From Candidatus Limnocylindria bacterium (GTDB lineage Bacteria > Patescibacteriota > Saccharimonadia > Saccharimonadales > JAGQNK01): a DNA stretch of 64,000 bases. Position 1 is the first letter of the stretch, and every line of letters starts with the position of its first letter. Under the pieces are notes generated by a model. That model had not been told where the DNA came from, did not search any database, and worked only from the letters and a program-made list of their open reading frames with translations. Positions 1,662 to 56,401 of the stretch are shown here, one piece after another. The DNA is taken from the NCBI GenBank assembly GCA_035489815.1, contig DATHJH010000042.1, positions 1,581-65,580 on the forward strand. The letters run 5' to 3'. The translations under genes and the position numbers were made by a program.

Positions 1662-2345
1662 GGCTAACTGCCAATTTATTCGCTGGGGTTATAGGTCCGT
1701 GCCAAACACCAACTCCTCCGGCAAATCAATTCTTTGCTTTTTCATGGCGGCATAGATCCCGGAAGCCGTTAGCCGAAGATCCAACCTTTTGCCACCTTCG
1801 TGACCCAACACGTTTGCCAATTCCCCTGAAATCTCCTGACGCTGCTCCGTGGCAGTAAGCGCAGCCCCGCCGGAAGCATATGGATCGATGTCAAGATCTA
1901 CGCCCAGGACATTCAGCAACCGATCACCCTCTGCACTCAGCCAAGTTACGTACCCCTTCGTCTAACACAATCCTCACTGCATTCTCCCCAGACCACAGCA
2001 AGACTCTGGCTCCGGGAGGGCGATCACCAGTTCCTTGGATCGTGACCGACAGATTCGTGTCCGGTCTCGCACCCATAGGGCCAGATGCATGCATAAATAG
2101 CTCTTTTGCCAGGGGCTATAAACATATTGGGCACTTCTGGGTCTTTCGACACTTTTCTAATAGAGGTTATCGTTTTCCCTCCCAGATTTTGGATACCATG
2201 CACCTCCCGGCCATCACCCATAAAGACAAAAAAATTTGTACTCTAAAAGTGTCCGGCCGGACACTTTTAGAGTACAGCGAAAGGTATCAAACTTGAAAAG
2301 TGACGCACAGTGGGCTGTAATGAGGATGTAAAAAGGAGGCCATGG

Positions 2346-43838: not shown

Positions 43839-44303
43839 ATGGGCAAAAAGAAACCCAACCAGACCAAACGCATCAGCAACAGGAGAGCCCGGTTTGATTA
43901 TGACCTGGGCGATGGGTTGCTGGTGGGAATTTCTTTGACCGGGGCAGAGACCAAATCTTTGCGGCGCGGGCATGGCCACATCCGCGGCGCATATGTGGTA
44001 GTAAAAGACGGCGAGCTGTGGCTTTTAAACGCCACCATTACCGGCGACAACGCCGTTCGGATTCCAGAGGAAGAACATACCCGCAGCCGCAAACTGCTTG
44101 CCAAAAGAAAAGAGATTGCTGAACTTATGGCTGCCAAACAACAAGGCCAGACCATCGTCCCGCTGGAAGTCCTGACCGGCGGCCGCTACATAAAAGTCCG
44201 CATATCAGCCGGCCGGGGCAAAAAACTTTACGACAAGCGTCAAACCCTCAAAAAGCGCGACGAACAACGCACCATCCAAGCCGCCATCAAGAAACATTTA
44301 TGA
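43839..44303 (+). CDS. smpB: SsrA-binding protein SmpB
   Basis: ISNRRARFDYDLGDGLLVGISLTGAETKSLR...GAYVVVKDGELWLLNATI and the basic C-terminal tail are typical of SmpB. Confidence 0.92.
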   Translation: MGKKKPNQTKRISNRRARFDYDLGDGLLVGISLTGAETKSLRRGHGHIRGAYVVVKDGELWLLNATITGDNAVRIPEEEHTRSRKLLAKRKEIAELMAAKQQGQTIVPLEVLTGGRYIKVRISAGRGKKLYDKRQTLKKRDEQRTIQAAIKKHL

Positions 44304-44369
44304 AACTGTAATTACATATTACGAAGCAATTGTAGTCCCTGTTACCCGGGCGTACAATGCATAAGCTAA

Positions 44370-45371
44370 ATGGCTGCGATGCTATATGGGGTAGACATGA
44401 GTAGACTTGCCAGAATTATTGCACTCCTTCGACTGACGACTCTGAGCGTCATTCTTTTTATAATGAGCAGCGCTATTGGGGCGGCATTGTATGTAAACGG
44501 CAATGTACAGCAGCTTTCGGGAGAACGCTTTAATCAGACGGTTGACCGGCTGGACACGCACATCCTGGAACGGATGGGCAACTATGCCGACCTGCTGTAC
44601 AGCAGCCGTTCCTACGCAGTCAGTACCACTCAGGTGACCCAGGAACAATGGAATGCCTTTTTCCGTAACCAAAGCACCTTTGACCGGCACCCGGGCATTA
44701 GTACCGTGAGTTATCTGCGGTTTTTCAACAACGCCCAGAAGTCGGACTTTCTACGGCAGATGCAGGCCCAACCGTACTTTGGCGGTAAAAAGTTTGCCAT
44801 TCGCCCGGCCGGTACCCGCGACCGCTATGCAGTTATCCAGTATGTCAGCACCAATAACGACGTCAAGGGCACGTTTGGTATTGACTCCTACGCCGGTCGG
44901 CCGCAGCGACAGGCCATGGACACAGCGGTAGGGACCGGTTTGCCCCAGGCCACTGAACTGTTTACCCTGGGCAGCGGAAAAAAGGGCTTTGCTATTTTTT
45001 TGCCGGCTTATAAAAACGATGCTGTGGACGGGTTTAGCATGATCAGCTTTCGAACCGAGGACTTTATAAAAGCCCTGTTTACCTACCCCGAACCGCATAT
45101 GCGCTATAAAATTGCCGATGTATCCGATCGTAGTGCACCGCAGGTGTTGCACCACTCAGCCAATTGGCAGGACGGGCTTGATCTGGAGCGAAAAGACACC
45201 ATAGACATCATGGGCCGCCAATGGGAAGTTACTTTTGCTGCCGACAGCAGCTATAACGTCAGTATGCATGCCCGGATTTTGCCGGTGCTGATTGTGCTGG
45301 TCGGCGTACTGCTGATCGCTCCAGTCCTGATTGCCTTTCGCAAACTTACCGGGGCAGGATCAAGTTCTTAA
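44370..45371 (+). CDS. CHASE-domain membrane protein without an output domain
   Basis: An N-terminal TM helix is followed by a ~230-aa periplasmic-type domain fitting the CHASE pattern (WNAFF...HPGISTVSYLRFF...YAVIQYVS...GIDSY...PQATELFTL...FAIFLPAY). A second TM helix follows and the protein then ends after about 15 aa. Confidence 0.6.
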   Translation: MAAMLYGVDMSRLARIIALLRLTTLSVILFIMSSAIGAALYVNGNVQQLSGERFNQTVDRLDTHILERMGNYADLLYSSRSYAVSTTQVTQEQWNAFFRNQSTFDRHPGISTVSYLRFFNNAQKSDFLRQMQAQPYFGGKKFAIRPAGTRDRYAVIQYVSTNNDVKGTFGIDSYAGRPQRQAMDTAVGTGLPQATELFTLGSGKKGFAIFLPAYKNDAVDGFSMISFRTEDFIKALFTYPEPHMRYKIADVSDRSAPQVLHHSANWQDGLDLERKDTIDIMGRQWEVTFAADSSYNVSMHARILPVLIVLVGVLLIAPVLIAFRKLTGAGSSS

Positions 45372-45834
45372 CCCGCAGCAGCCTGCGAAGGAACCGAAAG
45401 CGCAGGGTAGGCACTGCGGCTGTGATAACCACCGGAGCAACAATAATAGCAGTTACCGATGAATACGCCGGATTGCTGACAAAGGCCCGCCCCGCCCGGG
45501 TCATACGGACCAGAGGATTGTTGGCGTTCCGGCTGTCAGTATCCGGCCGTACCTGCGTTTGAGTGAGACGGGCACCAGACGGCACTGCAGCCGCCACCGT
45601 GGTGGGCACCCGGACGAGGGGGTCTGAACCTGCATGCGGTACCTCACCAATCACCGGACCGCACTCTGCCGGAGAAAGATAGGTAAGGTCGCTGCTGCCA
45701 TCACTGACCTGTTCGAACAAACAGCTCAGAGGCGCAACCTCCAGCCGTGCCTCTGAATCAACAGCACCGACCACAGGCGCAGTCACCACGCCCAAGCAAA
45801 CCAGCAGCCCGGTGATCACAAGGAGACTTTTCAT
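45346..45834 (-). CDS. small surface protein (162 aa): signal peptide plus C-terminal hydrophobic/basic anchor
   Basis: MKSLLVITGLLVCLGVVTAPVVGA forms the signal. The C-terminal VTAIIVAPVVITAAVPTLRFRFLRR looks like a membrane anchor or sorting signal. Its ATGA overlaps the stop of the 852-aa gene. Confidence 0.55.
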   Translation of the reverse strand: MKSLLVITGLLVCLGVVTAPVVGAVDSEARLEVAPLSCLFEQVSDGSSDLTYLSPAECGPVIGEVPHAGSDPLVRVPTTVAAAVPSGARLTQTQVRPDTDSRNANNPLVRMTRAGRAFVSNPAYSSVTAIIVAPVVITAAVPTLRFRFLRRLLRVKNLILPR

Positions 45835-48392
45835 CAGTTTGCCGTTACCGTCACCGTTAAGTTGAGGTTATAGGTCCCGGCTGGCTGCTCCGGCGGCACC
45901 TTTTGGGACGCGCCAACGCCTACGATATCCCAGTAGCAGTTGGTATTCGCACCAGAGGCAGAAGCAAGAGTCAGAGAATTGAGTGTGCCCTGAGCAAATG
46001 CCGCCAAACCGCCCAGGGAAATACCAGTGGCCGAACAACCGCTCTTTGGCGTAATAGTGGCAGTCGAGGGGTTTAGACTCAATTGGCCGGCCTCTCCGCT
46101 GTCTGCGTCTACGCCGTCACTACACCCGGCCGGGGAACCGGCGGCATCGTTGAAGTCGTAGTTGACACTGCCGGTACTCCACAAGGATGTATCGCCGCCG
46201 GTTGCCGCAACGGTCAACGACCAGTTGGGGCTGCCGGTGGTATTCGTGACCCGCACTTTCTGGCTGGAAGTACCTAACGTACCGGTGGGGGTAGTGCAGG
46301 CAAAGCTCAGCCCGCTGGACGACATGCTGACACCAGGGCTACTCACCCCGCAGCCGCTGCTGTCCACAATGTCCACGCCCAAAATACCCGTGCCGGGCGA
46401 CCGCCAGGCGGCATAGCGGTAGGTACTGCCGCTGACGTTTGTCTCCGCCGATGTCGTGGTGACTGAAAAGCCGTTGCAGATCAGGGCCGTGATCCGGTTG
46501 GTGGTGTTAGCCGTGTTGGCAAAATGCTGCGTCGCATTGCCAGCCAGCGAAGCCCCCCTGTGGACTCCGGTAGAGTTGGTAGTGCGTTTTACCCACACCA
46601 GATCCGGCTGGAAGCCCGCAGTTGTAATGTTTTGGGCTGCACCGGTGCCGCTGTAGCTGCCAACAGCAAAGTTGTCGCCGTTTTTAAACGCAAACCAGTG
46701 ATACAGATTGGCAGCGGCGTTGACAGTAGCGTCCGTTCCAACCTGGTAGCCGTCAGTCGTGAGGGCTTGCACACGATTAGCCCCCTCGGCCGTTGCTCCA
46801 AAGAACCCGGACAAATCACCGGCCATGGCCGAGGTCCGAAAGGTGCCGGCCGATGCCCCGCTCCTTTTGGCAGTCACCATATTTGGCTGGAAGGGCAGGC
46901 GGGTAATGTTGCGGCTGTCTATGCCGTTGCCATAGTAGGCGCCAATGGCAAAGTCGGCCGCGCCGGTGTTGGTGTAGGGGTCAAAGCCGCCAGCAAAGGC
47001 TTGCCACTGGTAGGTGTTGGCAGAGGTATTCACAATGGTGCTGGCACCCACCGTAAAGCCACCAGCGTCCAGAGAAGTAATCCCCCCGGTAAAATTGGCT
47101 GCTGCGTTAGAAAAATAGGCTGTACTGTTGCCGGCCATCAACCCCGTCCGAAACACCGAATAATTAGCAGCATTGTCTTTTATAATCACCAGTTCCGGCT
47201 GAAAGCCAAGTCCGGCAACAGACTGACCTGTACCGTTGCCGGTATAGGTGCCTGTTTCCATCTGAAAACCGCCGCTGACCGAATAGGCGGCAGCACCCCC
47301 AAAAGCCACCCAGTAAAATGTTGCCCCCGTTTCGTTCGTTTGGGCAGCCGTGCCCACCTGAAACCCATCGCTTTGCAAAGCCTGAACGGCATTTACCAGA
47401 TTGGCCGTTGCCGCACCTACAAAAGAAGAGCTATCGCCATAAGACTCCGGCCGGTTCATAACCGGGTCGCGGCTGGCAACGGTCGCCGAGGTAGCGTTTT
47501 TGACCATCACCAGGCTGGCCTGGAATCCCACGCCCGTAATGTTCCGGTTATCGGTGGCGTTGCCAGTGTAGGTGCCCTGGCTCATGCCTCCGGCCGTAGC
47601 CTTGAAGGCCACATAATAAAAGACGCCGGTGCTGGCGTTGTCCGTCGCCCCCACGTCAAAGCTGGTGGCCGCAAACGATCGAATATAGTTACCGGCCGTA
47701 TCCCTGGCTGCTGTAGTCAAAAACAACGTTTCGTTAGCCGGCTGGGACGCCACCCGGAAATGCCCGGCCACGGCAGTGGAGCGTTTGACCATCACAAAAC
47801 TGGGCTGAAACCCAGTCGTAATGGTCCGTGTGGCCGCTGCATTACCGGTGTAGCTACCAACGCAGTAATTGCCGGTGGCACTACAGTCAGAACCGGTGAA
47901 GGCCGTCCAGTAGTACAGCGCGTTGGCGGTATTTACGTTCGCCAGTGTGCCTACCGTAAAACCATCGGCCGTAAAAGTGATGTTCGTACCAGTATTGTCT
48001 GCTGCGGCACTGCTAAACGCCGTGGCGTTAGCAGGCATGGCCGACGTTTTAAAGACCATCACCCCGGCGTTGGTACTGGATTTGATCATCACCGTACTTG
48101 GTTGAAAACCAAGCCCCGTAATGGTCCGCCCAGCCACGCCCGTACCCACGTAGTACCCGCTTTGCATGGAAAAGTTAGCTGCCTGGGCTTTGTTGGTCAG
48201 GGTCGGTACCGTCGGTGCATCATTGGCACCCTCATCCACTACCCGTGAATCATGCAGCGACAGGTACAGGTTGTCGACAATCTTTGACTCATTCCATTTG
48301 GTAATCAGCATGTCGGCGGGGAAACCAAACAACAGGTTACTGACGACAATCAGTGCCGCCAGGCCTACTCTCAGAAGAGTGCTATTTTTCAT
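45834..48392 (-). CDS. 852-aa surface protein: N-terminal anchor, six ~95-aa repeats, C-terminal WxL-like domain
   Basis: Six repeats are marked by GFQP-x-(L/F)V-x-(I/V)K (GLGFQPSTVMIK, TGFQPSFVMVK, GVGFQASLVMVK, GLGFQPELVIIK, LPFQPNMVTAK, AGFQPDLVWVK). The last ~190 aa are paralogous to the 237-aa protein (NWSLTVAATGG...YNLNLTVTVTAN). Confidence 0.8.
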   Translation of the reverse strand: MKNSTLLRVGLAALIVVSNLLFGFPADMLITKWNESKIVDNLYLSLHDSRVVDEGANDAPTVPTLTNKAQAANFSMQSGYYVGTGVAGRTITGLGFQPSTVMIKSSTNAGVMVFKTSAMPANATAFSSAAADNTGTNITFTADGFTVGTLANVNTANALYYWTAFTGSDCSATGNYCVGSYTGNAAATRTITTGFQPSFVMVKRSTAVAGHFRVASQPANETLFLTTAARDTAGNYIRSFAATSFDVGATDNASTGVFYYVAFKATAGGMSQGTYTGNATDNRNITGVGFQASLVMVKNATSATVASRDPVMNRPESYGDSSSFVGAATANLVNAVQALQSDGFQVGTAAQTNETGATFYWVAFGGAAAYSVSGGFQMETGTYTGNGTGQSVAGLGFQPELVIIKDNAANYSVFRTGLMAGNSTAYFSNAAANFTGGITSLDAGGFTVGASTIVNTSANTYQWQAFAGGFDPYTNTGAADFAIGAYYGNGIDSRNITRLPFQPNMVTAKRSGASAGTFRTSAMAGDLSGFFGATAEGANRVQALTTDGYQVGTDATVNAAANLYHWFAFKNGDNFAVGSYSGTGAAQNITTAGFQPDLVWVKRTTNSTGVHRGASLAGNATQHFANTANTTNRITALICNGFSVTTTSAETNVSGSTYRYAAWRSPGTGILGVDIVDSSGCGVSSPGVSMSSSGLSFACTTPTGTLGTSSQKVRVTNTTGSPNWSLTVAATGGDTSLWSTGSVNYDFNDAAGSPAGCSDGVDADSGEAGQLSLNPSTATITPKSGCSATGISLGGLAAFAQGTLNSLTLASASGANTNCYWDIVGVGASQKVPPEQPAGTYNLNLTVTVTAN

Positions 48393-49353
48393 AACCTTCT
48401 ACGTAGGTATGCGCTTCCTGGGAAATCTGCTTCATGATGGCCTGGGCTTTGGCTTGATCATGCTTTTTGATCATGACGGTTAGCAGGTAAGGGCGATCGA
48501 GCAGGTAGACAATGCCGGAGTCCAGATAGTTTTTCTCCACGTTGTCTTCGCCGATCTTGTGCGAAAAGGCTGTGCCCTGCGGCAAACCAGCCGGTAACAT
48601 CCGGTTGAAAGGTGTTTGATTGAGCTGGTCCAAAATATACTGCGACCCGCTTCTTTTGAGGAAGCTGGAATTATACAGAGCGCGGAAGAGCCGGGAATAT
48701 TCCTTGGCAGAAACCTCGCTTTTTTCATCAAACAAGTCGTCCAGGCCTAGAGCGTCCTTTAACTCGCCCAGCTCTGTTTCTGACAAATTGCGCATGAGCA
48801 TCCGGTGAGCAGTGTTGTCGGACTGCGTTAGAAGCGCCTGCACTAGTTCCTGAATGGAAAAGCTGGTACCGACCGGTTTTTGATAGAGGGAACCGTAGCG
48901 CTGGTCCTTGTCCTGTTCAAACAGCACCAACCGGCTGTCCATGTGCCATTCGCCCTTTTCCACTTTTTTCATGGCTACCAGAGCGCTGGGCAGCTTGACC
49001 AAACTGGCGGGGTAAAACCTGGCTGTGTTGTTGATCTGAATGTTGGCACCGGTATTGAGGAACTCAAAGTACACGGAAATCGTATCGGCACCATCTTTTT
49101 CCACGATTTGGTTCAGCTTTTCGCGCAAGGGCTGGATGTTGACGATGAAGTGTTCTTGTGGAATGTAGTTCCGGGCAATATCAATAAAAGGGTATTTTTC
49201 GGCGGCCTTTTTTGCACTGTCGTCCCCGGACCCGCGTATCAGAAAACCCGCCGTCACGATGTTTGTTAGCAGCAACACGGCAAAAGCGGTGATAAACACC
49301 TTGGGACGAACGATACGCCGCTTGCGTGAAGCTGGTGGGTTATCGGCAGCCAT
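48382..49353 (-). CDS. class-A beta-lactamase-fold serine hydrolase (membrane-anchored)
   Basis: Contains S-x-x-K (PASLVKL), SDN (LTQSDNTAH) and a KxG-like HKIGE motif, plus an N-terminal TM helix. Confidence 0.7.
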   Translation of the reverse strand: MAADNPPASRKRRIVRPKVFITAFAVLLLTNIVTAGFLIRGSGDDSAKKAAEKYPFIDIARNYIPQEHFIVNIQPLREKLNQIVEKDGADTISVYFEFLNTGANIQINNTARFYPASLVKLPSALVAMKKVEKGEWHMDSRLVLFEQDKDQRYGSLYQKPVGTSFSIQELVQALLTQSDNTAHRMLMRNLSETELGELKDALGLDDLFDEKSEVSAKEYSRLFRALYNSSFLKRSGSQYILDQLNQTPFNRMLPAGLPQGTAFSHKIGEDNVEKNYLDSGIVYLLDRPYLLTVMIKKHDQAKAQAIMKQISQEAHTYVEGYEK

Positions 49354-49361
49354 GCACTGGC

Positions 49362-50537
49362 CTACTTTTTAGTTCTATTTTTAGTTCTAGAGGCCGACGG
49401 CTTGTCCTTTAGAATCTTGAGACGATAGCCTGGCTTGACGTGGTAGGGTGCCTTTAGGTGATTGACCCGTACGATAGTCTTCCAGGGCAGTCCGTAGGCT
49501 TCGGCAATGGCCTGAATATTTTCTCCTTCTTTTGCCACGTGCAGAGCGCCGTGCTTATGCCAGTGGTTCCGTGTTCGATGCCTGCGAATAAAAATACCTG
49601 CGCCAGCAACAACCAGGGCCAGGGAAGCCAGTTCAATGACTGCCGCCAAAGGTTTTGGACTAACAAGTAGCAAGCGCTTTTTACCAACGCTAGCCTTTTG
49701 GCCATCCCGGCCGATGCCTGCCGCCGGGTCAGGGTTGTAGGTTGCCTTTGCGCTGATCATATAGACACCGCCCCAGAAGGGTTCAGTCATATCAAAATTA
49801 AATTCGCTTTCGCCGCCAGCCAAGATGGGGAATTCGCCGCCGCTTTTGCGGACCGTGGTACCTAAGATAGTCTTGAGCCGGACATCTACGTCAGTATCCA
49901 GGGACACGTTACCGCTGTTTTTCAGTTGTGCGGAGACTATGTATTTGCCTGCGTCCCGCCGGCTATCCAGCCTACTAAAAAACAACCCCTTTTTGATGTC
50001 GCCCTTTACAGTTACCGCCACCCGGATGGCCGAACGAAAGGACAGGGCAATGCCGTTACCTGCAGCGGTCGGTGTCTGATTAGCCTCTTGGATAACTATG
50101 CAGCCGTTATGTTCGCCGCCCGCCGTACCGCCAGGCACTGCCAGCGTAAAAGGCACCTCCCGTTCACCGCCAGCCGGCAATGTGACCTTGCCAGTGCTCA
50201 AGCGAATCCACGCACCAACAGAACCGGGTTCATCCACTTTTTGAGCGCAGGCAAAGGCTCCGCCGCTTGATGCCTGCGAGTCAACACCGTAGACGTCTAT
50301 AGTTTTTTGTTTGTCGCTGTTGTTGTAGATCTTTACAGCATTGGTGGCTACTTGGCCAGCATCTACATCAAAGACAAATATAGATTTGGTGCGTGAATTG
50401 TTGGCATCCGGACGAGCAGGCTTGCCGCCAATCCCGCCAGATTCCACTGCGCCCGCCGAAGGCACCCCAAGCACCAGGGGAGCTAGAAAGACAACCCCCA
50501 CCAGTAGCCGAGAAAATTTGTAGCGTATGGCAGGCAT
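49362..50537 (-). CDS. DUF916/DUF3324-like cell-surface protein with a TM anchor and C-terminal LysM domain
   Basis: The ORF track gives 49362-50651. ATG 50537 yields a signal peptide (MPAIRYKFSRLLVGVVFLAPLVL). IFVFDVDAGQVATNAVKIYNNSDKQKTIDVYGVD fits the DUF916 pattern I know from WxL clusters. It also has the TM helix LAAVIELASLALVVAGAGIFI and the LysM-like segment HVAKEGENIQAIAEAYGLPWKTIVRVNHL. Confidence 0.6.
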   Translation of the reverse strand: MPAIRYKFSRLLVGVVFLAPLVLGVPSAGAVESGGIGGKPARPDANNSRTKSIFVFDVDAGQVATNAVKIYNNSDKQKTIDVYGVDSQASSGGAFACAQKVDEPGSVGAWIRLSTGKVTLPAGGEREVPFTLAVPGGTAGGEHNGCIVIQEANQTPTAAGNGIALSFRSAIRVAVTVKGDIKKGLFFSRLDSRRDAGKYIVSAQLKNSGNVSLDTDVDVRLKTILGTTVRKSGGEFPILAGGESEFNFDMTEPFWGGVYMISAKATYNPDPAAGIGRDGQKASVGKKRLLLVSPKPLAAVIELASLALVVAGAGIFIRRHRTRNHWHKHGALHVAKEGENIQAIAEAYGLPWKTIVRVNHLKAPYHVKPGYRLKILKDKPSASRTKNRTKK

Positions 50538-50545
50538 GGCCAATC

Positions 50546-51247
50546 CTACTGTGCAGTTGCCGTCAATGTCAGGTTGAGGGTATAAGAATCTGCAGCCTGT
50601 TCGGCCGGAATTGTCTGTGAAGCAGTGACGCCCGTGAGGTATCCGCGCCATATGTCATTTGAGGTACCGCCAGCATTAACCAAAGTGATACTGTCCAATG
50701 TGCCTTGGTTAAACCCGGCGCTAGAACCAACACTAACGCCAGTCGTATTACAAGACGCACAGTCCGTCGTAATAGCACCGACCGAAGGGTTGACGGTGAG
50801 CTGGCCAGGTGTGGCATCGGCGTCACCGGCAACATCAGTACAGCCAGCTGTCGTACCAGTCGGGTCGTTAAAGTCAATGTTCTGCGTTGCACCACCGTTT
50901 GCCCACCGTGCAGTGGCGCCTCCGGTGGCGGCCAAGGCCAGCGTCCAGCCGTTGTCCGCACCATCCGTGTTTGTAACATACACGCGTTCCGTGCCAGTTC
51001 CGAGGGTTCCGGTAGAAGCACTACCGCCTGCCTGACATTCAAAGGAAAAGCTCTTAGCAGACATTGCCACTGCCGGACTGGCAACCGGCACACGACTGGC
51101 GTCCATAATATCCGTAGCCAAGGTGTTACCGCCGCTAATAACCTGGCTAAAGGTAGAGTTAGATGCCGCGTATACCGCACTGCTACCAGCAAACACCATA
51201 ACCACCGCCAATGCGATCGCCTGTTTTAATAAAGCAGTTTTTTTCAT
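50546..51247 (-). CDS. WxL-like secreted surface protein (233 aa)
   Basis: GAGGGGG precedes ATG 51247, and a signal peptide is present. NGWTLALAATGG (a WxL motif) and the C-terminal YTLNLTLTATAQ resemble the two-motif WxL domain of Firmicutes. It is paralogous to the C-terminus of the 852-aa protein. Confidence 0.6.
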   Translation of the reverse strand: MKKTALLKQAIALAVVMVFAGSSAVYAASNSTFSQVISGGNTLATDIMDASRVPVASPAVAMSAKSFSFECQAGGSASTGTLGTGTERVYVTNTDGADNGWTLALAATGGATARWANGGATQNIDFNDPTGTTAGCTDVAGDADATPGQLTVNPSVGAITTDCASCNTTGVSVGSSAGFNQGTLDSITLVNAGGTSNDIWRGYLTGVTASQTIPAEQAADSYTLNLTLTATAQ

Positions 51248-51466
51248 GTTCCCCCTCAAATCCCCTTCATACCACTAATTACTCTAGATAGTAGCAGTCG
51301 CGCTTATGTTTGTAAATTAACTTACAGATTTTTCTGTTTTTTTGTGCATTTCCCGCCAGTTTACAGATACACAACTAGCAAGCTAGAGCAGCGGAGTTCT
51401 TTCCCTCAGTTAGCAAGCCAAGCTTAGCATAAGCAAAAAAGAAAGAGCAGATCTAAAATTACATAA

Positions 51467-51484
51467 TCCCGGGTAGCTCAATGG
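51467..51484 (+). repeat. duplicate of the tRNA-Asn 5' end
   Basis: tcccgggtagctcaatgg matches tccggagtagctcaatgg at 51907-51924 in 16 of 18 positions. Confidence 0.6.
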
Positions 51485-51554
51485 GTTCTCTGCACCTAAA
51501 AGGACATACTCAGCCCGCTTGCGGTAGAGTAAAGAATACTCTACCGCAACGATT

Positions 51555-51836
51555 ATGCCCAAAGAAAAGCGTACATATGCAGACAGAAGAGAGTACTTTA
51601 TTATGGCGGTTTCAAAACGCCGCCGCAGGATTAAAGAAAAAGCGATCGAACTCCTAGGCAGCAGGTGTCAAGTGTGCAGATATGACCGCTATCAGGGAGC
51701 CTTGATTTTCATCACGTTGACCCAAGCACAAAAGAGCTTCGGCATTAGCGGCAATGGGCACTCCCGGTCATGGGAGCGAGTAAAAGAAGAACTAGCCAAG
51801 TGTGTACTGGTTTGCGCCAACTGTCACGGGAGATAG
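51555..51836 (+). pseudogene. decayed small HNH endonuclease gene
   Basis: The ORF stays open but reads ALIFITLTQAQKS where an alternative frame of 51704-51736 reads DFHHVDPSTKE, the expected HNH block. After CANCH the expected REI.AGL tail is again in another frame (stop at 51881-83). Confidence 0.65.
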
Positions 51837-51906
51837 GGGCAGGTTTGGTGGAGATTGACCGACCATTTACTCTAAAAGACTGATACGATACAATATACGG
51901 TGTTGT

Positions 51907-52246
51907 TCCGGAGTAGCTCAATGGTAGAGCGATTGGCTGTCAGTTGGCAGCGCACCTGAGTAATCAGGTGATGAAAACAGGGTGAATTGCAGGAAACCTA
52001 CATCCTCGCAGAGGACACGGCAATCTGCAGCCAAGCTAGAAAGAGCAAAAGTTCATTAATGAACTGAGGTTTTCTAGAAGGTTCAGAGACTAGGGAGTGA
52101 GACTCAACGATAATCTCCCCGCGAGCGCCCTGCATCCTACGTAGCTTTATGCGAAGGAGGATGATGAAATAGTCCACGCTCCTGCGAAAGCAGAAGGTCT
52201 AAGTGTAACCAATAGGTTGCCGGTTCGAGTCCGGCCTCCGGAGCCA
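51907..52246 (+). tRNA. tRNA-Asn(GUU) interrupted by a group I intron (exon 1 51907-51940, exon 2 52206-52246, CCA encoded)
   Basis: The joined exons give a canonical cloverleaf: acceptor UCCGGAG/CUCCGGA, D arm GCUC-AAUGGUA-GAGC, anticodon arm AUUGG-CUGUUAA-CCAAU, T arm GCCGG-UUCGAGU-CCGGC, discriminator G73 and CCA. Confidence 0.8.
51941..52205 (+). ncRNA. group I intron (265 nt, no ORF), probably of the tRNA-intron (IC3-like) type
   Basis: P1 forms between exon GCUGU and intron GCAGC with a U.G pair at the splice site. P10 forms between intron GUUG and exon-2 UAAC. Other marks are a P2 hairpin with a GUAA loop (51953-70), AGAGACUA at 52085-92, a GAAA-capped hairpin at 52182-93 and a terminal G at 52205. 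Confidence 0.75.
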
Positions 52247-52353
52247 AAGCAAGCAGTCAAATAGTGAGACCGAGTTCTGTGACCGGTTTCTTCGTTTGAC
52301 TCCTTGGTGCCAGGAAGTTATTCATCAATGCAAAAACAGCCAGTTTTGGTTGG

Positions 52354-52377
52354 AACCGTCCGGAAGGGCGGTTTTTT
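52354..52377 (+). terminator. rho-independent terminator downstream of the tRNA
   Basis: aaccgtcc ggaa gggcggtt forms an 8-bp stem and is followed by TTTTTT. Confidence 0.7.
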
Positions 52378-52502
52378 GTTATTTACTTCAGTTATTTGGT
52401 TCCGAAGGCGACCCGTTCCTGTTGCGGGAACCAAGCAGGCGATAAGGAGACCGAGTTCCTAGATCGGTTTACTCAAATCCACATAATTCCAAGAAAATAA
52501 TC

Positions 52503-53144
52503 CTATTCTAGGTATAGCTTAGAGAATTTTTTGCCATCAATAACTTGCAGCACCGATCCATCGCCAATAGGGCTGCCGTCTGGCATGGTAGAAAATGTAT
52601 CGATACACCACACTCCATGTTTAACTTCATAACAGGTATCGGAAGGGGTATGCCCGAATACTTGAGGTATATTTTTGTATGTAATACTGCCGCCAGGTCG
52701 TGCCCAAAGAGGGCTTGTGTCATTCCATAGGCCAGTCACATCTTCTGCGCCAGACCATTCGTTTGCTATGCCAGCGTGAGAATAGGTAACGCCATCAATT
52801 TCGATAATAACAGGCAGGCCAGCCAGCCACTCCTTCAGTTTTTTATTTTCGGGCGCATTTATTAAAGTGTGTGTTATTGGGTTATAGCCGGTTTGAAATG
52901 ATGGTGTATCGTAAACATAGATATAATCATGATTGCCGAGTACTAAGCCAACTTTATTCTTATGCTTAATCTGCAGATCTCTTAGTGACTTCCAGGTGTT
53001 TAGAGTATTTTGCGGGCTAGCACTAAAGTCATCTGCAAAATCACCACAGAAAACAACCTTATCATAATCGTTAATGACTTTGGAGACTTTCTCAATAATC
53101 CAGATCTTCGTGTGGATGTCGCCAATTGCCAGTATTTTTCCCAT
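52503..53144 (-). CDS. calcineurin-like metallophosphoesterase (PrpE/ApaH-like)
   Basis: The motifs GDIHTK, GDFADD, GNHD and GH(T)P appear in the canonical order. Confidence 0.8.
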   Translation of the reverse strand: MGKILAIGDIHTKIWIIEKVSKVINDYDKVVFCGDFADDFSASPQNTLNTWKSLRDLQIKHKNKVGLVLGNHDYIYVYDTPSFQTGYNPITHTLINAPENKKLKEWLAGLPVIIEIDGVTYSHAGIANEWSGAEDVTGLWNDTSPLWARPGGSITYKNIPQVFGHTPSDTCYEVKHGVWCIDTFSTMPDGSPIGDGSVLQVIDGKKFSKLYLE

Positions 53145-53172
53145 GCCTACAGTATATCCCGTGGATCACTAG

Positions 53173-53526
53173 TTACGCCTGCTTGTGCAGTCTACGTATG
53201 CGCTCACGTACAGATTCTTGATATTGTGCAGGGTTTTGCATCTGGTGATAGGCACGAACAGCAATCACCTCAAAACGATCGTCATCTACAAGATACACAA
53301 TTGCTACTTTATGATTTTGCATCTGAACTTTGCGCACATCCGGATCGCCTTTGAATACGGCATTGGCTCGTGGCAAGTTTCCCAAGTTAGCTACGGTTTC
53401 CATAGCTTCATCAAAAAACCTCACCGCCGATTCAGCATCCACCAGCTCTTCATAAAATGCCATTAGCTCTGCAATATCGTTCTCGGCATCTTCTGTAAGA
53501 TTGACGCTATACTTTTGCACCAGCAA
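53173..53526 (-). CDS. ParE/RelE-family type II toxin
   Basis: 117 aa. YSVNLTEDAENDIAELMAFY...NLPRANAVF...VAIVYLVDDDRFEVIAVRAYHQ fits the ParE pattern. It overlaps the upstream small ORF by 20 nt. Confidence 0.7.
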   Translation of the reverse strand: MLVQKYSVNLTEDAENDIAELMAFYEELVDAESAVRFFDEAMETVANLGNLPRANAVFKGDPDVRKVQMQNHKVAIVYLVDDDRFEVIAVRAYHQMQNPAQYQESVRERIRRLHKQA

Positions 53527-53716
53527 GTTCCTGATATTTCTTTAAAATATCTTTCTTGGCCTGACTGAGCGGTATACGGTTTTTAGGATTTTTAGCAAGT
53601 TTAATGCGTCGTTCCAACTCAAGCCGAAACTCTTGGCTATTTTCGTCTACATTAATAACTTTGCTATTACTCATAGCTTTTATTTTATCACATTCCATGC
53701 ATAAAATATACGCCAA
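53507..53716 (-). CDS. putative antitoxin of the ParE-like toxin
   Basis: Small ORF directly upstream of and overlapping the toxin gene. The likely start is ATG 53674 (MSNSKVINVDENSQEF...), giving 55 aa. Confidence 0.5.
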   Translation of the reverse strand: MAYILCMECDKIKAMSNSKVINVDENSQEFRLELERRIKLAKNPKNRIPLSQAKKDILKKYQELAGAKV

Positions 53717-53732
53717 GATTTGACAATTAAAA

Positions 53733-53806
53733 GGGGTAAGCTAAAGTAAAACGAGCCTAAAATCAGGCGGTAATATTCGCTGGTTCGAATCCCGCCCCCG
53801 GAGCCA
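53733..53806 (+). repeat. degenerate tRNA-like relic ending in ...GGTTCGAATCC...CCGGAGCCA (copy 2 of the tRNA 3' end)
   Basis: 74 nt with a T-arm (one mismatch), a 3' acceptor strand and CCA, but only 4 bp of acceptor stem and no canonical anticodon arm. 53779-53832 is about 80% identical to 52219-52272. Confidence 0.6.
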
Positions 53807-53963
53807 GACCAAGCAGTGAAAAAGGTAGACCGTGCCTATGACTGGTTTCCCGATCCCGGGTTCTGTGAGTGTTCTAGCTTTACGTGACTCTCGTTTTTCA
53901 TTGGCTCAGCAGCCATAAACGGCTCGCTACCTCACTGGGGTTGCCGTGCTATCATTGGTAACT

Positions 53964-54478
53964 ATGCAAAAGTTCAGCCAAAAATACGCCGTCATACAAT
54001 TACTCGAAGACATGGAGGAAGGAGCCGAGTTTTCTGGTGACCGTTGGCCGCTCCACGTTACGATCGCTGATACACTTGCCGTTGATTGGAACAAAAACGA
54101 TTTACGCAAAAAGCTGGAGGGGCTGCTCGCCAGCCTGAAACCGGCTACAGCAACCAGCGACCATGACGAGTTCTTCGGGCCGGAGAAACAGACCCAGGTC
54201 ACAATATTGGACATGAGCAAAGAATTAGTCGACCTGCACTATAAAGTTATCAAACTACTGGAAAGCGCCGGAGCCGTGTTTAATGACCCGCAGTACGCAA
54301 GGAAGGCTTTCGGGCTCACGCAACCGTCCAGCCGCATGCACGCGTTAACAAAGGTGATGTGGTTACCTTCAAGGCACTCACTATAGTCGATATGTTTCCA
54401 AACAGCGATCCTTACCAGCGGAAGATACTTAAAACCATGAAGATCGGCCGCGGCCACTTGCGTCCTGAAGAGAAGTAA
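53964..54478 (+). pseudogene. 2H-phosphoesterase (LigT/2'-5' RNA ligase-like) gene with a frameshift
   Basis: The first H-x-T-x motif (RWPLHVTIAD) is in ORF 53946-54386. The second (FRAHATVQ) appears only in another frame, which is open from 54287 to the stop at 54476-78. Confidence 0.55.
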
Positions 54479-54496
54479 GTTTTGGAAACCCGTACC

Positions 54497-55258
54497 TCAA
54501 GCCTCCCAAAGCCGCCTGGGATTGTTACCATAGGAGGTGTCTATACATATGCCAAGCTCAGCAAGCTTGGCGTCCGCAATTTCAACCGGATGGAAGGCAT
54601 CTGTAGGCAACCTGTAGTGCTGTGCCCTGGAGACATAAAAGTCAAAATAACTATTGCGTTCGGGCGGCCCTGCAAAGTAAAGGCCGGCTTTATCAAGATT
54701 ACCCAAAACTGTCTTGGCCAACCCCTTAACCGGTACAAACGTCTTGTATACGTTGTCCCAATATTCCCGCCCTTGGCTTGGTTCATCAAGCAGCTTCTGA
54801 GTCCGGTCATCCGTGGTGCCCTGGCTGTCTTCACCATATATAGGCCCTGTCACAAAAACCACAAATTCAGGATTGGTAAGCACCATGGTTTGTTCGGCAT
54901 GCTTACGCCTGGCATAGTCTCCCAGCGAAGTGGCGGCAGCTAATGATCTGTTGCAGAATGCCGCGTCCGACGAAATATATACAAACTTCGTTTCATGCAG
55001 TTCGTCCAGCAAATCTGCAAAAGGATCGTCTGACACAGGGTATTCCTTTCCTGGCCAGGCCGTCCATATAACAGCATCCGGTTTTTGATCGGTAAGCGTA
55101 TTCCAGGTAGTTCTATCTTCAAGCTTGAACCTGGCAAGGCCGGCGCTTTCCTGCGAATGAAACGTCCCAAGCGCCTCATAGCCCATGGCGCGTGTTTGAT
55201 GCAGTATTTCTGATCCCAAGTAACCAGTCGCGCCGACAGTCAAAACTTTCATGTCCAT
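54497..55258 (-). CDS. NAD(P)-binding atypical SDR (NmrA/epimerase-like)
   Basis: ATG 55258 yields MDMKVLTVGATGYLGSEIL, a Rossmann GxxGxxG motif. The ORF track extends it to 55318. Confidence 0.7.
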   Translation of the reverse strand: MDMKVLTVGATGYLGSEILHQTRAMGYEALGTFHSQESAGLARFKLEDRTTWNTLTDQKPDAVIWTAWPGKEYPVSDDPFADLLDELHETKFVYISSDAAFCNRSLAAATSLGDYARRKHAEQTMVLTNPEFVVFVTGPIYGEDSQGTTDDRTQKLLDEPSQGREYWDNVYKTFVPVKGLAKTVLGNLDKAGLYFAGPPERNSYFDFYVSRAQHYRLPTDAFHPVEIADAKLAELGICIDTSYGNNPRRLWEA

Positions 55259-55324
55259 AGCATAGCAGCATTCTATTGCCTCTTGAGCAATTTCAAACAA
55301 ACGGCAACCTGCTATCATAGCATC

Positions 55325-56080
55325 ATGAAACAGAAACTATTGGCATTTAAAAACCGATGCAATCGGCTTACGGCGCGACTAAAAAATATTGACGTCTCAA
55401 ACAGACGGCACCAAAAAATGCTGCTAGGTACCGGGTTTGGAGTTCTTGTAGCGATTGCTTTGCTCACTGCGGGCATAGTACGTCTTAACAAAAGCCCGGC
55501 ACCGGAATCCGTGCCTTCACCCGGCACCACTGCTACAAACACAGGGCAACAAGCTGCTGAACCGCCCAGCCCATCGTCAGACACAGGCGGTACCAGCAAC
55601 CCAAGCAAGCCTCCTGCTCAACCCGGGTCCAAATCGGTCCCGGCCGGCCTCAACAACTCTTATAAGATAGCCCTGCCTGCTGGCTGGAGCGAAGTTTCGG
55701 GACCGACATATGGCGGGTGGCACGCTGCACTCAACACCTTTAGCGACGGGACCAGAAGCCTGGCCGTAATTGTAAACCTTGAATTCTTTGACCCGGCAGG
55801 ACCGCCAAGGCTAGATGCCAATTCAAAAGGAGAGGTTGGTGTACTAACGAGGGCAGGGGACAAAGTTGCCTTTGACCCGTCAAGTATTGTCTTCTGTGAC
55901 CCAGACCCAAAAAGCAACTGCGGAACGGGGGACGGTGAAACACAGCTCATATTGGGCCTCAGTACTATTTATGGCAACTCCTATTCCTTCATACTGCTCA
56001 GCGATGAACCGGAATCAATCAGCGAACTACACAATTTCGACGCTATTCTCAATTCAGTCACGTTAATAAAACCAAACTAA
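55325..56080 (+). CDS. membrane-anchored extracytoplasmic protein with a Pro/Ser/Thr-rich linker
   Basis: From ATG 55325, the TM helix LLGTGFGVLVAIALLTAGIV is followed by a low-complexity linker and a ~150-aa domain. No family recognised. Confidence 0.5.
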   Translation: MKQKLLAFKNRCNRLTARLKNIDVSNRRHQKMLLGTGFGVLVAIALLTAGIVRLNKSPAPESVPSPGTTATNTGQQAAEPPSPSSDTGGTSNPSKPPAQPGSKSVPAGLNNSYKIALPAGWSEVSGPTYGGWHAALNTFSDGTRSLAVIVNLEFFDPAGPPRLDANSKGEVGVLTRAGDKVAFDPSSIVFCDPDPKSNCGTGDGETQLILGLSTIYGNSYSFILLSDEPESISELHNFDAILNSVTLIKPN

Positions 56081-56135
56081 AAGAGGGTCTGTCGGTAAAA
56101 TCCCCCCCAGAGTAGGAAATTACTATAAAGAGCCG

Positions 56136-56209
56136 TGAGACACCAGAAATAAAGTGAGCCTAAAATCAGGCGGTATTTGAGTGTAGCTCGAATCCAGTCC
56201 CCGGAGCCA
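56136..56209 (+). repeat. degenerate tRNA-like relic (copy 3 of the tRNA 3' end)
   Basis: 56156-56175 is identical to 53753-53772 (gagcctaaaatcaggcggta). The last 22 nt (...tcgaatccagtccccggagcca) match copy 2 closely. A strong terminator follows directly. Confidence 0.55.
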
Positions 56210-56224
56210 AGCCACGATAGAGGA

Positions 56225-56256
56225 AATCAGAACTGTTAACGCAGTTCTGATTTTTT
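56225..56256 (+). terminator. rho-independent terminator
   Basis: aatcagaactg ttaacg cagttctgatt forms an 11-bp stem and is followed by a T-run. Confidence 0.8.
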
Positions 56257-56401
56257 GTATAGGCAGGCTAGCATTGAAACCAATCAATCATTTTATCTCT
56301 GTATACTTTTCAAATCCTGTCTAATCAAAATTACGACTTGCTCTATTGTTGTGAGCCAACCATGTCTTTAATTGCTTCACGATATACTGCATACTATTTG
56401 T

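What the first reader, a model, noticed from the sequence alone, without database searches (positions are those of the whole stretch)
51467..51924. Decayed free-standing HNH endonuclease cassette bracketed by a duplicated tRNA 5' end
ORF 51555-51836 starts and ends like the widespread small HNH proteins (MPKEKRTYADRREY...CQVCRYDR...RSWERVKEELAKCVLVCANCH). Its catalytic block, however, is out of frame. The ORF reads ALIFITLTQAQKS, while another frame of the same nucleotides (51704-51736) reads DFHHVDPSTKE.

Two compensating 1-nt indels therefore keep the ORF open while removing the His-His/Asp residues. A third shift after CANCH moves the expected REI.AGL tail into another frame, which stops at 51881-83.

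The cassette is flanked by an 18-nt direct repeat of the tRNA 5' end (51467-84 against 51907-24, 16 of 18 identical). A perfect 11-bp hairpin (51521-47) precedes it. This looks like a former homing endonuclease gene sitting beside, not inside, the intron-containing tRNA. That would make it an intron plus free-standing endonuclease pairing caught in decay.
Basis: partly seen in the sequence, partly recalled or inferred. Interest (0 to 1): 0.6.

Follow-up and report, generated by a model that had tools for sequence, protein, structure and literature searches.

The report
Dead HNH homing-endonuclease gene beside tRNA-Asn
This is a recently inactivated copy of a small selfish nuclease gene that, across Patescibacteria, lives inside or right next to the tRNA-Asn gene; it appears to have arrived here together with a foreign, intron-bearing tRNA-Asn and left an 18-base stump of the tRNA gene it displaced.

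Summary
ORF 51555-51836 is an HNH gene broken by three 1-nt indels: -1 at 51703/04, +1 in the A-run 51730-33, and -1 at 51827-31. Repairing them gives a 109-aa protein up to 81% identical to hundreds of ~105-aa HNH proteins. Two separately assembled sequencing runs and a further assembly of another sample carry the same indels, so they are not assembly errors.

In 80 genomes, this HNH family lies inside the group I intron of tRNA-Asn (52 loci) or immediately next to tRNA-Asn (about 23). The five closest intact relatives are all free-standing, directly upstream of an intronless tRNA-Asn.

The 18-nt "repeat" is not a target-site duplication. In sister lineages with 85% identical flanks, a complete intronless tRNA-Asn without any HNH sits at that position, and the window keeps only its first 18 nt. 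The working tRNA matches tRNAs of HNH-bearing genomes (68-69/75 nt), not the sister's (59/75). HNH, spacer and intron-containing tRNA therefore entered as one module and displaced the resident gene.

The tRNA-Asn intron at position 35/36 and its HNH genes were published in 2026. This is a new member of a known kind, of moderate interest.

The parts
51467..51484 (+). Stump: positions 1-18 (acceptor strand to D-loop) of a displaced resident tRNA-Asn gene of the TCCCGGG type. With the 3 bases before it (51464-84) it is 21/21 identical to the tRNA-Asn start in L087.
   Evidence: 18/18 identical to the 5' end of the complete intronless tRNA-Asn at the same place in sister contigs L123 and L124; homology stops abruptly after position 18. 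Only two matches to the 18-mer in the window, against 0.04 expected.
51485..51518 (+). 34 nt of unknown origin between the stump and the HNH leader; it contains the left junction of the incoming DNA.
   Evidence: No significant similarity to any fetched locus or to smpB 3' ends (p 0.3-0.95 against shuffles).
51519..51554 (+). HNH leader with a perfect 13-bp inverted repeat (51519-31 / 51537-49, loop 5 nt). It takes the place of the usual -10 box.
   Evidence: Inverted repeat found; fold energy -22.6 kcal/mol. 21/27 identical to the leader of the intact HNH gene in L088, in the same register to the ATG, with no shuffle of 5,000 scoring as high. No TATAAT-like hexamer here, whereas 67 of 92 homologue loci have one, mostly ending 6-9 nt before the ATG.
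51555..51883 (+). HNH endonuclease pseudogene. The present ORF is 51555-51836 (93 aa) and the ancestral stop is 51881-83. Lesions: -1 nt at 51703/51704, +1 nt in the A-run 51730-33, -1 nt at 51827-31.
   Evidence: Three-frame translations and nucleotide alignment with five intact homologues. The repaired 109-aa protein has 395 homologues, E down to 2.5e-54. It keeps 33 of 35 residues that are at least 90% conserved, while the actual product lacks D51, H53, H54, R92, E93 and G97. PF01844 matches 18 of 18 family members tested.
51866..51894 (+). Promoter-like site for the tRNA (TTTACT-17-TACAAT), overlapping the old HNH tail. It lies in a spacer homologous to the HNH-tRNA spacer of L086 and L089.
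   Evidence: Consensus scan. The spacer GATACAATATACGGTGTTGT aligns with GCTACAATATGCGCTGTTAT in L086 and L089.
51907..51940 (+). tRNA-Asn(GUU) 5' exon, ending at U35.
   Evidence: ARAGORN in intron mode. P1 pairing GCUGU/GCAGC places the U-G wobble at 51940 (read from the sequence). The spliced tRNA is 68-69/75 identical to the intronless tRNA-Asn of L086 and L089.
51941..52205 (+). ORF-less group I intron (265 nt) at anticodon-loop position 35/36.
   Evidence: Rfam RF00028, 81.2 bits, full-length match. This is the intron class described and shown to self-splice in PMC13011429. It is most similar to the introns of L013, L052 and L057.
52206..52246 (+). tRNA-Asn 3' exon with encoded CCA.
52352..52385 (+). 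Intrinsic terminator downstream of the tRNA.
53753..53806 (+). 20-mer GAGCCTAAAATCAGGCGGTA followed by a tRNA-Asn 3' remnant (53777-53806, CCCCGGA acceptor). It closes a block carrying the metallophosphoesterase gene and a ParE toxin pair.
   Evidence: The remnant is 97% identical to the 3' end of the L007 tRNA-Asn.
56156..56283 (+). The same 20-mer, a second tRNA-Asn 3' remnant (to 56213), then the native downstream flank of the resident tRNA-Asn.
   Evidence: The 20-mer occurs exactly twice in the window. 56188-56283 is 80% identical to the sequence directly after the tRNA-Asn in L123 and L126.

Best explanation
The ORF is a recently inactivated free-standing HNH homing-endonuclease gene. 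It belongs to a family that in Patescibacteria is tied to the single tRNA-Asn gene, usually as the ORF inside its position-35/36 group I intron and otherwise directly beside it.

**Shown**
- The gene carries three frameshifts that remove the catalytic D-HH block and the conserved RE..G tail.
- It has no -10 box.
- It changes two conserved glycines.
- Everything else conserved in the family is still intact, so the decay is young.
- HNH, spacer and tRNA form one inherited module. The spacer and tRNA body match HNH-bearing genomes, while the left flank matches lineages that have a different, intronless, HNH-free tRNA-Asn at exactly this point.
- Only the first 18 nt of that resident gene survive.

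**Inferred**
- The module entered by recombination anchored in homology on the tRNA side or further downstream.
- Its upstream end was joined illegitimately to the broken resident tRNA gene in the D-loop. This is what would be expected if an HNH-made break in the resident tRNA-Asn was repaired from a donor that lacked upstream homology.
- Once the module was fixed and no cleavable allele remained, selection on the nuclease lapsed. The gene then decayed by slippage in short homopolymer runs, the usual end of the homing cycle.
- The intron-containing tRNA remains functional because it is the only tRNA-Asn detected in the 64-kb window and presumably in the genome.
For: - **Pseudogene.** locate the three indels against five intact homologues. 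One search shows the missing -10 box.
- **Reproducible.**
- **Family and its tie to tRNA-Asn.** (395 homologues; PF01844 in 18 of 18): of 80 genome loci, 52 are inside the intron, 12-14 upstream of an intron-containing tRNA-Asn, 3 upstream of an intronless one, and 5 adjacent on the other strand. Searches show the closest intact relatives are all free-standing.
- **Mobility.** The upstream neighbour differs between loci: smpB in L086, L088 and L089, a LexA-like gene in L087, and other genes in L083. The gene is absent from the close relatives L120, L123 and L126.
- **Module and displacement.** Spacer homology; leader homology to L088; tRNA 68-69/75 identical to L086 and L089 against 59/75 to L123. 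Sister contigs have a complete tRNA-Asn where the stump is, and the sister downstream flank reappears at 56188-56283.
- **Literature.** HNH genes in Patescibacteria tRNA-Asn 35/36 introns (PMC13011429). Free-standing endonucleases acting next to ORF-less or defunct introns in phages (PMC2790892, PMC3984707).
Against: - No nuclease activity or cleavage site is known for any member of this family, so the link between the HNH protein and the break that truncated the resident tRNA is inference.
- The right-hand junction of the incoming DNA could not be fixed. The locus also carries two further blocks ending in tRNA-Asn 3' remnants, so other recombination systems work here and could have produced the stump.
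- The stump (TCCCGGG type) and the 3' remnants (CCCCGGA) do not fit together as one old gene.
- The 34 nt next to the stump match nothing.
- All five intact close relatives sit beside intronless tRNAs, so it is unclear what these enzymes cut and how their own tRNA is protected.
- I did not examine reads. Agreement among assemblies does not exclude a minority intact allele.
Confidence: 0.75

Rival explanations
1. The stump was made by a site-specific integrative element, not by an HNH-made break. The HNH-tRNA module is simply the leftmost block of a tandem array of islets that integrate at tRNA-Asn.
For: Two further blocks to the right each end in a tRNA-Asn 3' remnant preceded by the identical 20-mer GAGCCTAAAATCAGGCGGTA. 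About 4.7 kb is extra relative to the sister lineages. tRNA 3' duplicates also follow the tRNA-Asn in L083, L088 and L123.
Against: Integration at a tRNA 3' end regenerates the 3' end and leaves 3' remnants. It does not leave a 5' stump or replace the whole tRNA body. No integrase gene was identified among the ORFs nearest the locus that were scanned against Pfam. The HNH leader, gene, spacer and tRNA are collinear with ordinary chromosomal HNH-tRNA loci.
Confidence: 0.12
2. One reading: a roughly 420-bp HNH cassette inserted into the 5' part of the tRNA gene and duplicated 18 nt of its target.
For: A 16/18 direct repeat brackets the cassette.
Against: None of about 24 other free-standing loci has such a repeat. 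On this model the tRNA body downstream of the right copy should be the resident type, but it is 59/75 identical to the sister tRNA and 68-69/75 to tRNAs of HNH-bearing genomes. Its 3' acceptor strand pairs perfectly with the right copy and not with the left. The two copies differ at two acceptor-stem positions.
Confidence: 0.05
3. The stump is the old 5' exon of an intron that once contained this HNH ORF. The gene became free-standing when the exon was duplicated downstream of the ORF.
For: In 52 of 80 loci the 5' exon lies about 70 nt upstream of the HNH ATG, close to the 88 nt seen here. Switches between intronic and free-standing positions occur in the family tree.
Against: The window's HNH belongs to a clade whose intact members are all free-standing, and it shares their leader and spacer. 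Sister genomes show that the stump derives from an intronless tRNA without any HNH. The stump ends at position 18, not at the splice site (position 35).
Confidence: 0.04
4. The frameshifts are sequencing or assembly errors and the gene is intact.
For: All three indels lie in or beside short homopolymer runs.
Against: The sequence is identical in separate assemblies of two runs and in a MEGAHIT contig of another sample. The surrounding long ORFs are unbroken. The promoter is also lost and two conserved glycines are changed.
Confidence: 0.02
5. The 93-aa ORF is kept open on purpose, as a catalytically dead protein that still binds nucleic acid, for instance helping the tRNA-Asn intron to fold or marking the locus.
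For: The -1 and +1 shifts lie 26 nt apart and restore the frame. The basic N-terminal region and all four zinc cysteines are retained.
Against: There is no promoter-like site, and a -22.6 kcal/mol hairpin ends 5 nt before the ATG. A third shift truncates the protein. With three random +/-1 indels, a compensating pair is not unlikely. No other copy with this pattern was found.
Confidence: 0.03

Closest known systems
HNH homing-endonuclease genes inside the position-35/36 group I (IA) introns of tRNA-Asn(GUU) in Patescibacteria (Nakagawa et al. 2026, mSystems, PMC13011429)
   Same: Same tRNA, same intron insertion site, same Pfam family (PF01844), and the same ARAGORN Thr(UGU) mis-call. In my sample 52 of 80 homologue loci have exactly this intronic arrangement.
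   Different: Here the gene lies outside the intron, upstream of the tRNA, and is a pseudogene. [quoted passage not shown] It does not mention free-standing copies and concluded that most tRNA introns lack endonuclease genes.
Free-standing homing endonucleases beside ORF-less or defunct introns in phages: T4 mobE with the I-TevIII intron (PMC2790892), and collaborative or trans homing as reviewed in PMC3984707
   Same: A nuclease gene next to, not in, an intron-containing gene, with patchy distribution and different upstream neighbours. The same endonuclease family occurs both inside and outside introns, as the intron-invasion models predict.
   Different: This is a bacterial chromosome and a tRNA gene, not a phage protein gene. 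No cleavage site is known. The closest intact relatives accompany intronless tRNAs, so cooperation with the intron is unproven.
Homing endonuclease genes in phage tRNA gene clusters (for example T4 SegB, PMC13096335)
   Same: Endonuclease genes nested among tRNA genes. More distant relatives of this HNH (49-59% identity) sit in multi-tRNA arrays on large contigs.
   Different: SegB is a GIY-YIG enzyme. The window's copy lies beside a single chromosomal tRNA.
Homing-endonuclease life cycle of invasion, fixation, degeneration and loss (general model, from my own knowledge)
   Same: A fixed element with fresh inactivating mutations, while related lineages have either intact copies or empty sites.
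   Different: Here the invasion left a physical scar, the stump of the displaced target gene, which normal two-sided homing does not leave.

Membership tests
HNH endonuclease (PF01844, beta-beta-alpha-metal fold) | Significant match to the family profile | tested here: inconclusive
   The repaired protein scores 17.9-18 bits, E 0.003, below the gathering score of 21.4, and the actual ORF gives no match. All 18 aligned family members match PF01844 at E <= 0.01 (best 4.7e-6). The family profile matches the HNH domain of a group II intron maturase in the PDB (6me0, E 5e-4).
HNH endonuclease (PF01844, beta-beta-alpha-metal fold) | Catalytic His in the D-x-HH block, plus two CxxC zinc pairs and the C-terminal CxxCH | tested here: not met
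   The actual 93-aa product has IFITLTQAQK in place of DFHHVDPSTK and lacks H53 and H54, which are 100% conserved in 90 homologues. The four cysteines and H91 are kept.
Pseudogene | Frame-disrupting changes relative to several intact homologues, reproducible in independent data | tested here: met
   Three 1-nt indels against five homologues. The sequence is identical in assemblies of SRR7026476 and SRR7026477 and in an ENA contig. Reads themselves were not examined.
Homing endonuclease gene (free-standing) | Patchy presence among close relatives and varying neighbours on the far side, with a constant partner gene | tested here: met
   Absent from L120, L123-L125 and L126. The upstream neighbour varies (smpB, a LexA-like gene, others) while tRNA-Asn is constant.
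Homing endonuclease gene (free-standing) | Site-specific cleavage of alleles that lack the element, followed by copying of the gene into the break | not testable with these tools
   No biochemical data exist for any family member. The stump ending at tRNA position 18 is compatible with a break in the resident tRNA gene but does not prove it.
Collaborative (trans) homing pair: free-standing endonuclease plus ORF-less intron | The endonuclease target coincides with the intron insertion site, so the intron protects its carrier | not testable with these tools
   Twelve to fourteen loci, plus the window, pair a free-standing HNH with an ORF-less intron. However, the window's own HNH clade accompanies intronless tRNAs.
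Patescibacteria tRNA-Asn 35/36 group I intron (PMC13011429) | RF00028 match above threshold, 5' exon ending in U paired with G in P1, intron ending in G, and spliced exons forming a canonical tRNA-Asn like intronless homologues | tested here: met
   81.2 bits against a gathering score of 50. U51940 pairs with G in P1, and G52205 is the last intron base. The spliced 75-nt tRNA is 68-69/75 identical to the intronless tRNA-Asn of L086 and L089, and ARAGORN draws a cloverleaf. Self-splicing was not tested here.
Target-site duplication by cassette insertion | The repeat is present at other insertions of the same cassette, and the DNA outside the repeats is continuous with the pre-insertion gene | tested here: not met
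   No repeat in about 24 other free-standing loci. The tRNA to the right is not the resident allele.

The most novel reading that the evidence does not exclude
The free-standing HNH genes beside tRNA-Asn are the trans-acting mobility engines of the 'ORF-less' tRNA-Asn introns of Patescibacteria, and of the tRNA gene itself. On this reading the window preserves a physical fossil of one such event. An HNH-made break in a resident intronless tRNA-Asn was repaired from a foreign HNH-tRNA(+intron) donor, using homology on one side only, so a whole essential tRNA gene was swapped between lineages. This would mean tRNA-intron mobility in this phylum has been underestimated, because the endonuclease genes were sought only inside introns.
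Probability: 0.3. Interest if true: 0.6.

Novelty: new member of a known kind. Interest (0 to 1): 0.4.

Why it matters
The pseudogene alone is ordinary. Its context is useful in two ways.

First, the same HNH family alternates between an intronic and a free-standing position next to one tRNA gene across a whole phylum. That is the raw material for models of how mobile group I introns are assembled from an intron and an invading endonuclease gene. It also qualifies the recent conclusion that most Patescibacteria tRNA introns lack endonucleases and are therefore hardly mobile.

Second, comparison with sister lineages shows that an essential single-copy tRNA gene was replaced by a foreign copy carrying an intron and an endonuclease gene, leaving a datable scar. 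Both ideas can be tested directly with a cleavage assay on a 107-aa protein.

Tried and rejected
1. **Stump as the former 5' exon of an HNH-containing intron.** This was my working idea. I rejected it because the closest intact relatives, the leader and the spacer are all of the free-standing type. Sister contigs also show an intronless, HNH-free tRNA at that spot.
2. **Remnants upstream of other free-standing HNH genes.** I searched each locus for its own tRNA 5' 18-mer with up to 4 mismatches. None was found.
3. **Origin of the 34 nt at 51485-51518.** I looked for similarity to donor smpB 3' ends or any fetched locus. Nothing was significant (blastn).
4. **Closer relatives of the broken gene.** I scanned JGI metagenome contigs. 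Nothing exceeded 80% identity and no copy shared the indels. The DNA of P0001, the best protein hit at 81%, could not be retrieved.
5. **A second HNH copy or fragment in the window.** tblastn gave only chance-level hits.
6. **An 11-nt complementarity between the CANCH codons (51816-26) and the splice-site region (51938-48).** Several such matches are expected by chance in 1.3 kb, so I dropped it.
7. **Stump and 3' remnants as two halves of one old tRNA.** The acceptor strands do not match (TCCCGGG against CCCCGGA), so they are not.
8. **NCBIfam scan.** No match for either the actual or the repaired protein.
9. **The hairpin as a repeated element.** It is unique in the window.
Full report

Yes. 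The frame-1 ORF 51555-51836 encodes 93 aa. It begins and ends like a small HNH protein but reads ALIFITLTQAQKS where the catalytic block should be. The +2 frame of the same bases reads LDFHHVDPSTKE, and later REIGAGLVEIDRPFTLKD with a stop at 51881-83.

A nucleotide alignment with five intact homologues shows exactly three 1-nt indels and no other register change:
- one base missing between 51703 and 51704;
- one extra A in the run 51730-33;
- one base missing beside the G-run 51828-30.

All three lie in or next to short homopolymers. The 18-mer at 51467-84 matches the tRNA 5' end at 51907-24 in 16 of 18 positions. These are the only two matches with up to 3 mismatches in the window, against 0.04 expected. 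The hairpin is 13 perfect pairs, not 11 (51519-31 with 51537-49).

**2. Are the frameshifts artefacts?**

No. Logan assemblies of two separate runs, SRR7026476 and SRR7026477, are 100% identical to window 50001-54500. An ENA MEGAHIT contig from another sample is 100% identical over 1,190 nt spanning the gene. I could not inspect reads.

The window belongs to a 91-kb contig of an NCBI third-party MAG labelled Candidatus Limnocylindria. The deposited protein numbering leaves no slot for an HNH product between the flanking genes. Relatives of the genes tested are mostly labelled Saccharimonadales or Patescibacteria, so the MAG label is doubtful.

**3. What family is it?**

Repairing the three indels gives a 109-aa protein with 395 database homologues of about 100-115 aa. 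E-values reach 2.5e-54 and identity 81%.
- The two exceptions are glycines next to the first CxxC (G36S, G42R).
- The product actually encoded lacks D51, H53, H54, R92, E93 and G97.
- PF01844 (HNH) matches all 18 aligned members, although the repaired window protein itself stays just below the Pfam gathering score.
- The family profile matches the HNH domain of a group II intron maturase in the PDB.

The gene is therefore dead, and recently so.

**4. Where does this family live?**

I fetched 80 loci from species-representative genomes, nearly all Patescibacteria MAGs, and ran ARAGORN with introns allowed.

| Position of the HNH gene | Loci |
|---|---|
| Inside the intron of a tRNA-Asn gene (5' exon about 70 nt before the ATG, T-arm 170-250 nt after the stop) | 52 |
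| Just upstream of an intron-containing tRNA-Asn, same strand | 12-14 |
| Just upstream of an intronless tRNA-Asn | 3 |
| Adjacent on the opposite strand | 5 |
| Downstream of the tRNA | 1 |
| At contig ends or without a tRNA | remainder |

ARAGORN often labels these tRNAs Thr(UGU). This is the 2-nt boundary ambiguity documented by Nakagawa et al. (PMC13011429). That paper described the position-35/36 group I introns of Patescibacteria tRNA-Asn, showed self-splicing, and found four introns with HNH genes. It did not look outside introns.

In the window, P1 pairing (GCUGU/GCAGC, U-G wobble at 51940) and the terminal G at 52205 give GU|U, which is Asn. The spliced tRNA is 68-69/75 identical to intronless tRNA-Asn genes.

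Most family members have a TATAAT-like hexamer ending 6-9 nt before the ATG, even inside introns (67 of 92 loci). This spacing suggests leaderless transcripts. The window has none.

**5. The window's own clade**

The closest intact relatives are P0004 (80%), P0011 (75%), P0003 (72%), L088 (71%) and L089 (68%). All are free-standing, 10-55 nt upstream of an intronless tRNA-Asn. In a neighbour-joining tree they form an all-free-standing clade with the window, while switches between intronic and free-standing positions occur elsewhere in the tree.
- The spacer between the HNH stop and the tRNA carries the tRNA promoter-like site TTTACT-17-TACAAT. It is homologous to the spacer in L086 and L089.
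- The 36-nt leader with the inverted repeat is homologous to the leader in L088: 21/27 identical in the same register, and no shuffle out of 5,000 scored as high.
- There the repeat is imperfect (-9 against -22.6 kcal/mol).
- The two substitutions that complete the palindrome in the window also destroy the TACCAT hexamer.

Leader, gene, spacer and tRNA are therefore one inherited module. The window's intron is instead most similar to introns of L013, L052 and L057, which accompany HNH genes of another clade.

**6. What is the 18-nt repeat?**

None of about 24 other free-standing loci has a copy of its tRNA 5' end upstream of the HNH gene. The decisive comparison came from the left-flank gene.
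- Contigs L123, L124 and L125 encode a secreted protein 94% identical to the window's and share 85% nucleotide identity over window 50407-51467. L126 is a more distant relative (80% protein identity).
- At the position of the window's 18-mer, all four carry a complete, intronless tRNA-Asn and no HNH gene.
- The window's 18-mer is identical to the first 18 nt of the L123 tRNA, and similarity ends there, in the D-loop.
- The working tRNA is only 59/75 identical to that resident type, but 68-69/75 to the tRNAs of L086 and L089.
- The sequence that directly follows the tRNA in L123 and L126 reappears in the window at 56188-56283.

The window therefore has about 4.7 kb extra relative to these lineages, beginning with the HNH-tRNA module. 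The "repeat" is the stump of the displaced resident gene.

**7. The wider locus**

To the right of the working tRNA lie two further blocks. Each closes with the identical 20-mer GAGCCTAAAATCAGGCGGTA followed by a tRNA-Asn 3' remnant (53753-53806 and 56156-56213). The first block carries the metallophosphoesterase gene and a ParE toxin pair.

In relative L120 the order is smpB, tRNA-Asn (with intron, no HNH), metallophosphoesterase. In L086, L088 and L089 it is smpB, HNH, tRNA-Asn. In the window smpB lies 7.2 kb upstream of the stump. The tRNA-Asn gene is evidently a recombination hotspot, and this weakens any single-event reconstruction.

**8. Most likely history and mechanism**

*Shown:* the gene is a pseudogene of a tRNA-Asn-associated HNH family. 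A foreign HNH-tRNA(+intron) module replaced a resident intronless tRNA-Asn. The left junction lies at tRNA position 18/19 and shows no homology beyond it.

*Inferred:*
1. The resident gene was broken, plausibly by the HNH enzyme of an incoming donor.
2. The break was repaired by copying the donor from the tRNA side or further downstream.
3. The far end was joined illegitimately to the broken end, because the donor's upstream context (for example smpB) had no counterpart.
4. After fixation the nuclease gene lost its promoter and picked up slippage indels.

This follows the free-standing and trans-homing logic known from phages (PMC2790892, PMC3984707). No member of this family has been assayed.

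The main rival is that an integrase-type event at this hotspot made the stump. 3'-end integration does not explain a 5' stump or a wholly replaced tRNA body. Cassette-only insertion with a target duplication, an intronic origin of the stump, sequencing error, and a purposeful dead-nuclease ORF are each contradicted by specific results, listed under the rival explanations.

**9. Novelty and score**

The intron class and its HNH genes are published. Free-standing endonucleases beside introns are known from phages. Decayed homing endonuclease genes are common. The window's feature is a new member of a known kind.

What goes beyond the literature I could search is the frequent free-standing position of this family next to tRNA-Asn in bacterial chromosomes, and the scar of a tRNA gene replacement. 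Interest is 0.4.

Noticed in passing
window 52247-56283: Two blocks downstream of the tRNA each end in the same 20-mer (GAGCCTAAAATCAGGCGGTA) followed by a tRNA-Asn 3' remnant (53753-53806 and 56156-56213). The first carries a metallophosphoesterase gene and a ParE toxin pair. They look like a tandem array of small integrated islets without an integrase gene.
   Followed up: partly
window 52261-52289, 52442-52470 and about 53820-53850: A hairpin-forming motif of about 29 nt (GAGACCG...CGGTTTC) recurs after the tRNA, before the metallophosphoesterase stop codon, and after the first 3' remnant. The corresponding tRNA flank in L120 is similar.
   Followed up: partly
L083 2010-2111; L088 downstream of the tRNA (about 2700-2800); L123 about 1700-1850 (minus strand): Downstream of intronless tRNA-Asn genes there is a second copy of the T-arm plus acceptor 3' strand, split inside the T-loop by a GC-rich insert of about 55-60 nt. 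It could be an att remnant or a structured RNA.
   Followed up: no
L099-L114 (for example L100, and L108 from a 485-kb contig): More distant relatives of this HNH (49-59% identity) sit between genes of multi-tRNA arrays on large contigs, several next to tRNAs with roughly 180-210-nt introns (called Asn, Ile(tat), Arg(tct) and Tyr by ARAGORN). These are possibly large phages.
   Followed up: no
92 homologue loci (L002-L098); window 51515-51554: In 67 of 92 loci a TATAAT-like hexamer ends mostly 6-9 nt before the HNH ATG, also when the gene is inside the intron. This suggests leaderless transcripts from a promoter internal to the intron.
   Followed up: partly
window 43839-51466: smpB directly precedes (HNH-)tRNA-Asn in L086, L088, L089 and L120. 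In the window 7.2 kb of other genes lies in between: a CHASE-domain protein, DUF7483, a beta-lactamase-like protein, a WxL-interacting/LysM protein and a secreted protein.
   Followed up: partly
whole window (NCBI proteins HTE22763-HTE22815): The deposited MAG is labelled Candidatus Limnocylindria (Chloroflexota). However, the HNH family, the tRNA-Asn 35/36 intron and several close protein relatives point to Saccharimonadales (Patescibacteria). The contig may be mis-binned or the label wrong.
   Followed up: partly
L086 1845-1872: Directly before the tRNA-Asn of L086 lies TTCCCCGGGTAAGCTAG, which resembles a decayed TCCCGGG-type tRNA 5' end. It may be another scar of tRNA replacement.
   Followed up: no
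L120 3894-4198 (minus strand): A close relative has an intron-containing tRNA-Asn (230-nt intron) between smpB and the metallophosphoesterase gene with no HNH gene nearby. The intron can therefore persist without a nearby endonuclease gene.
   Followed up: partly
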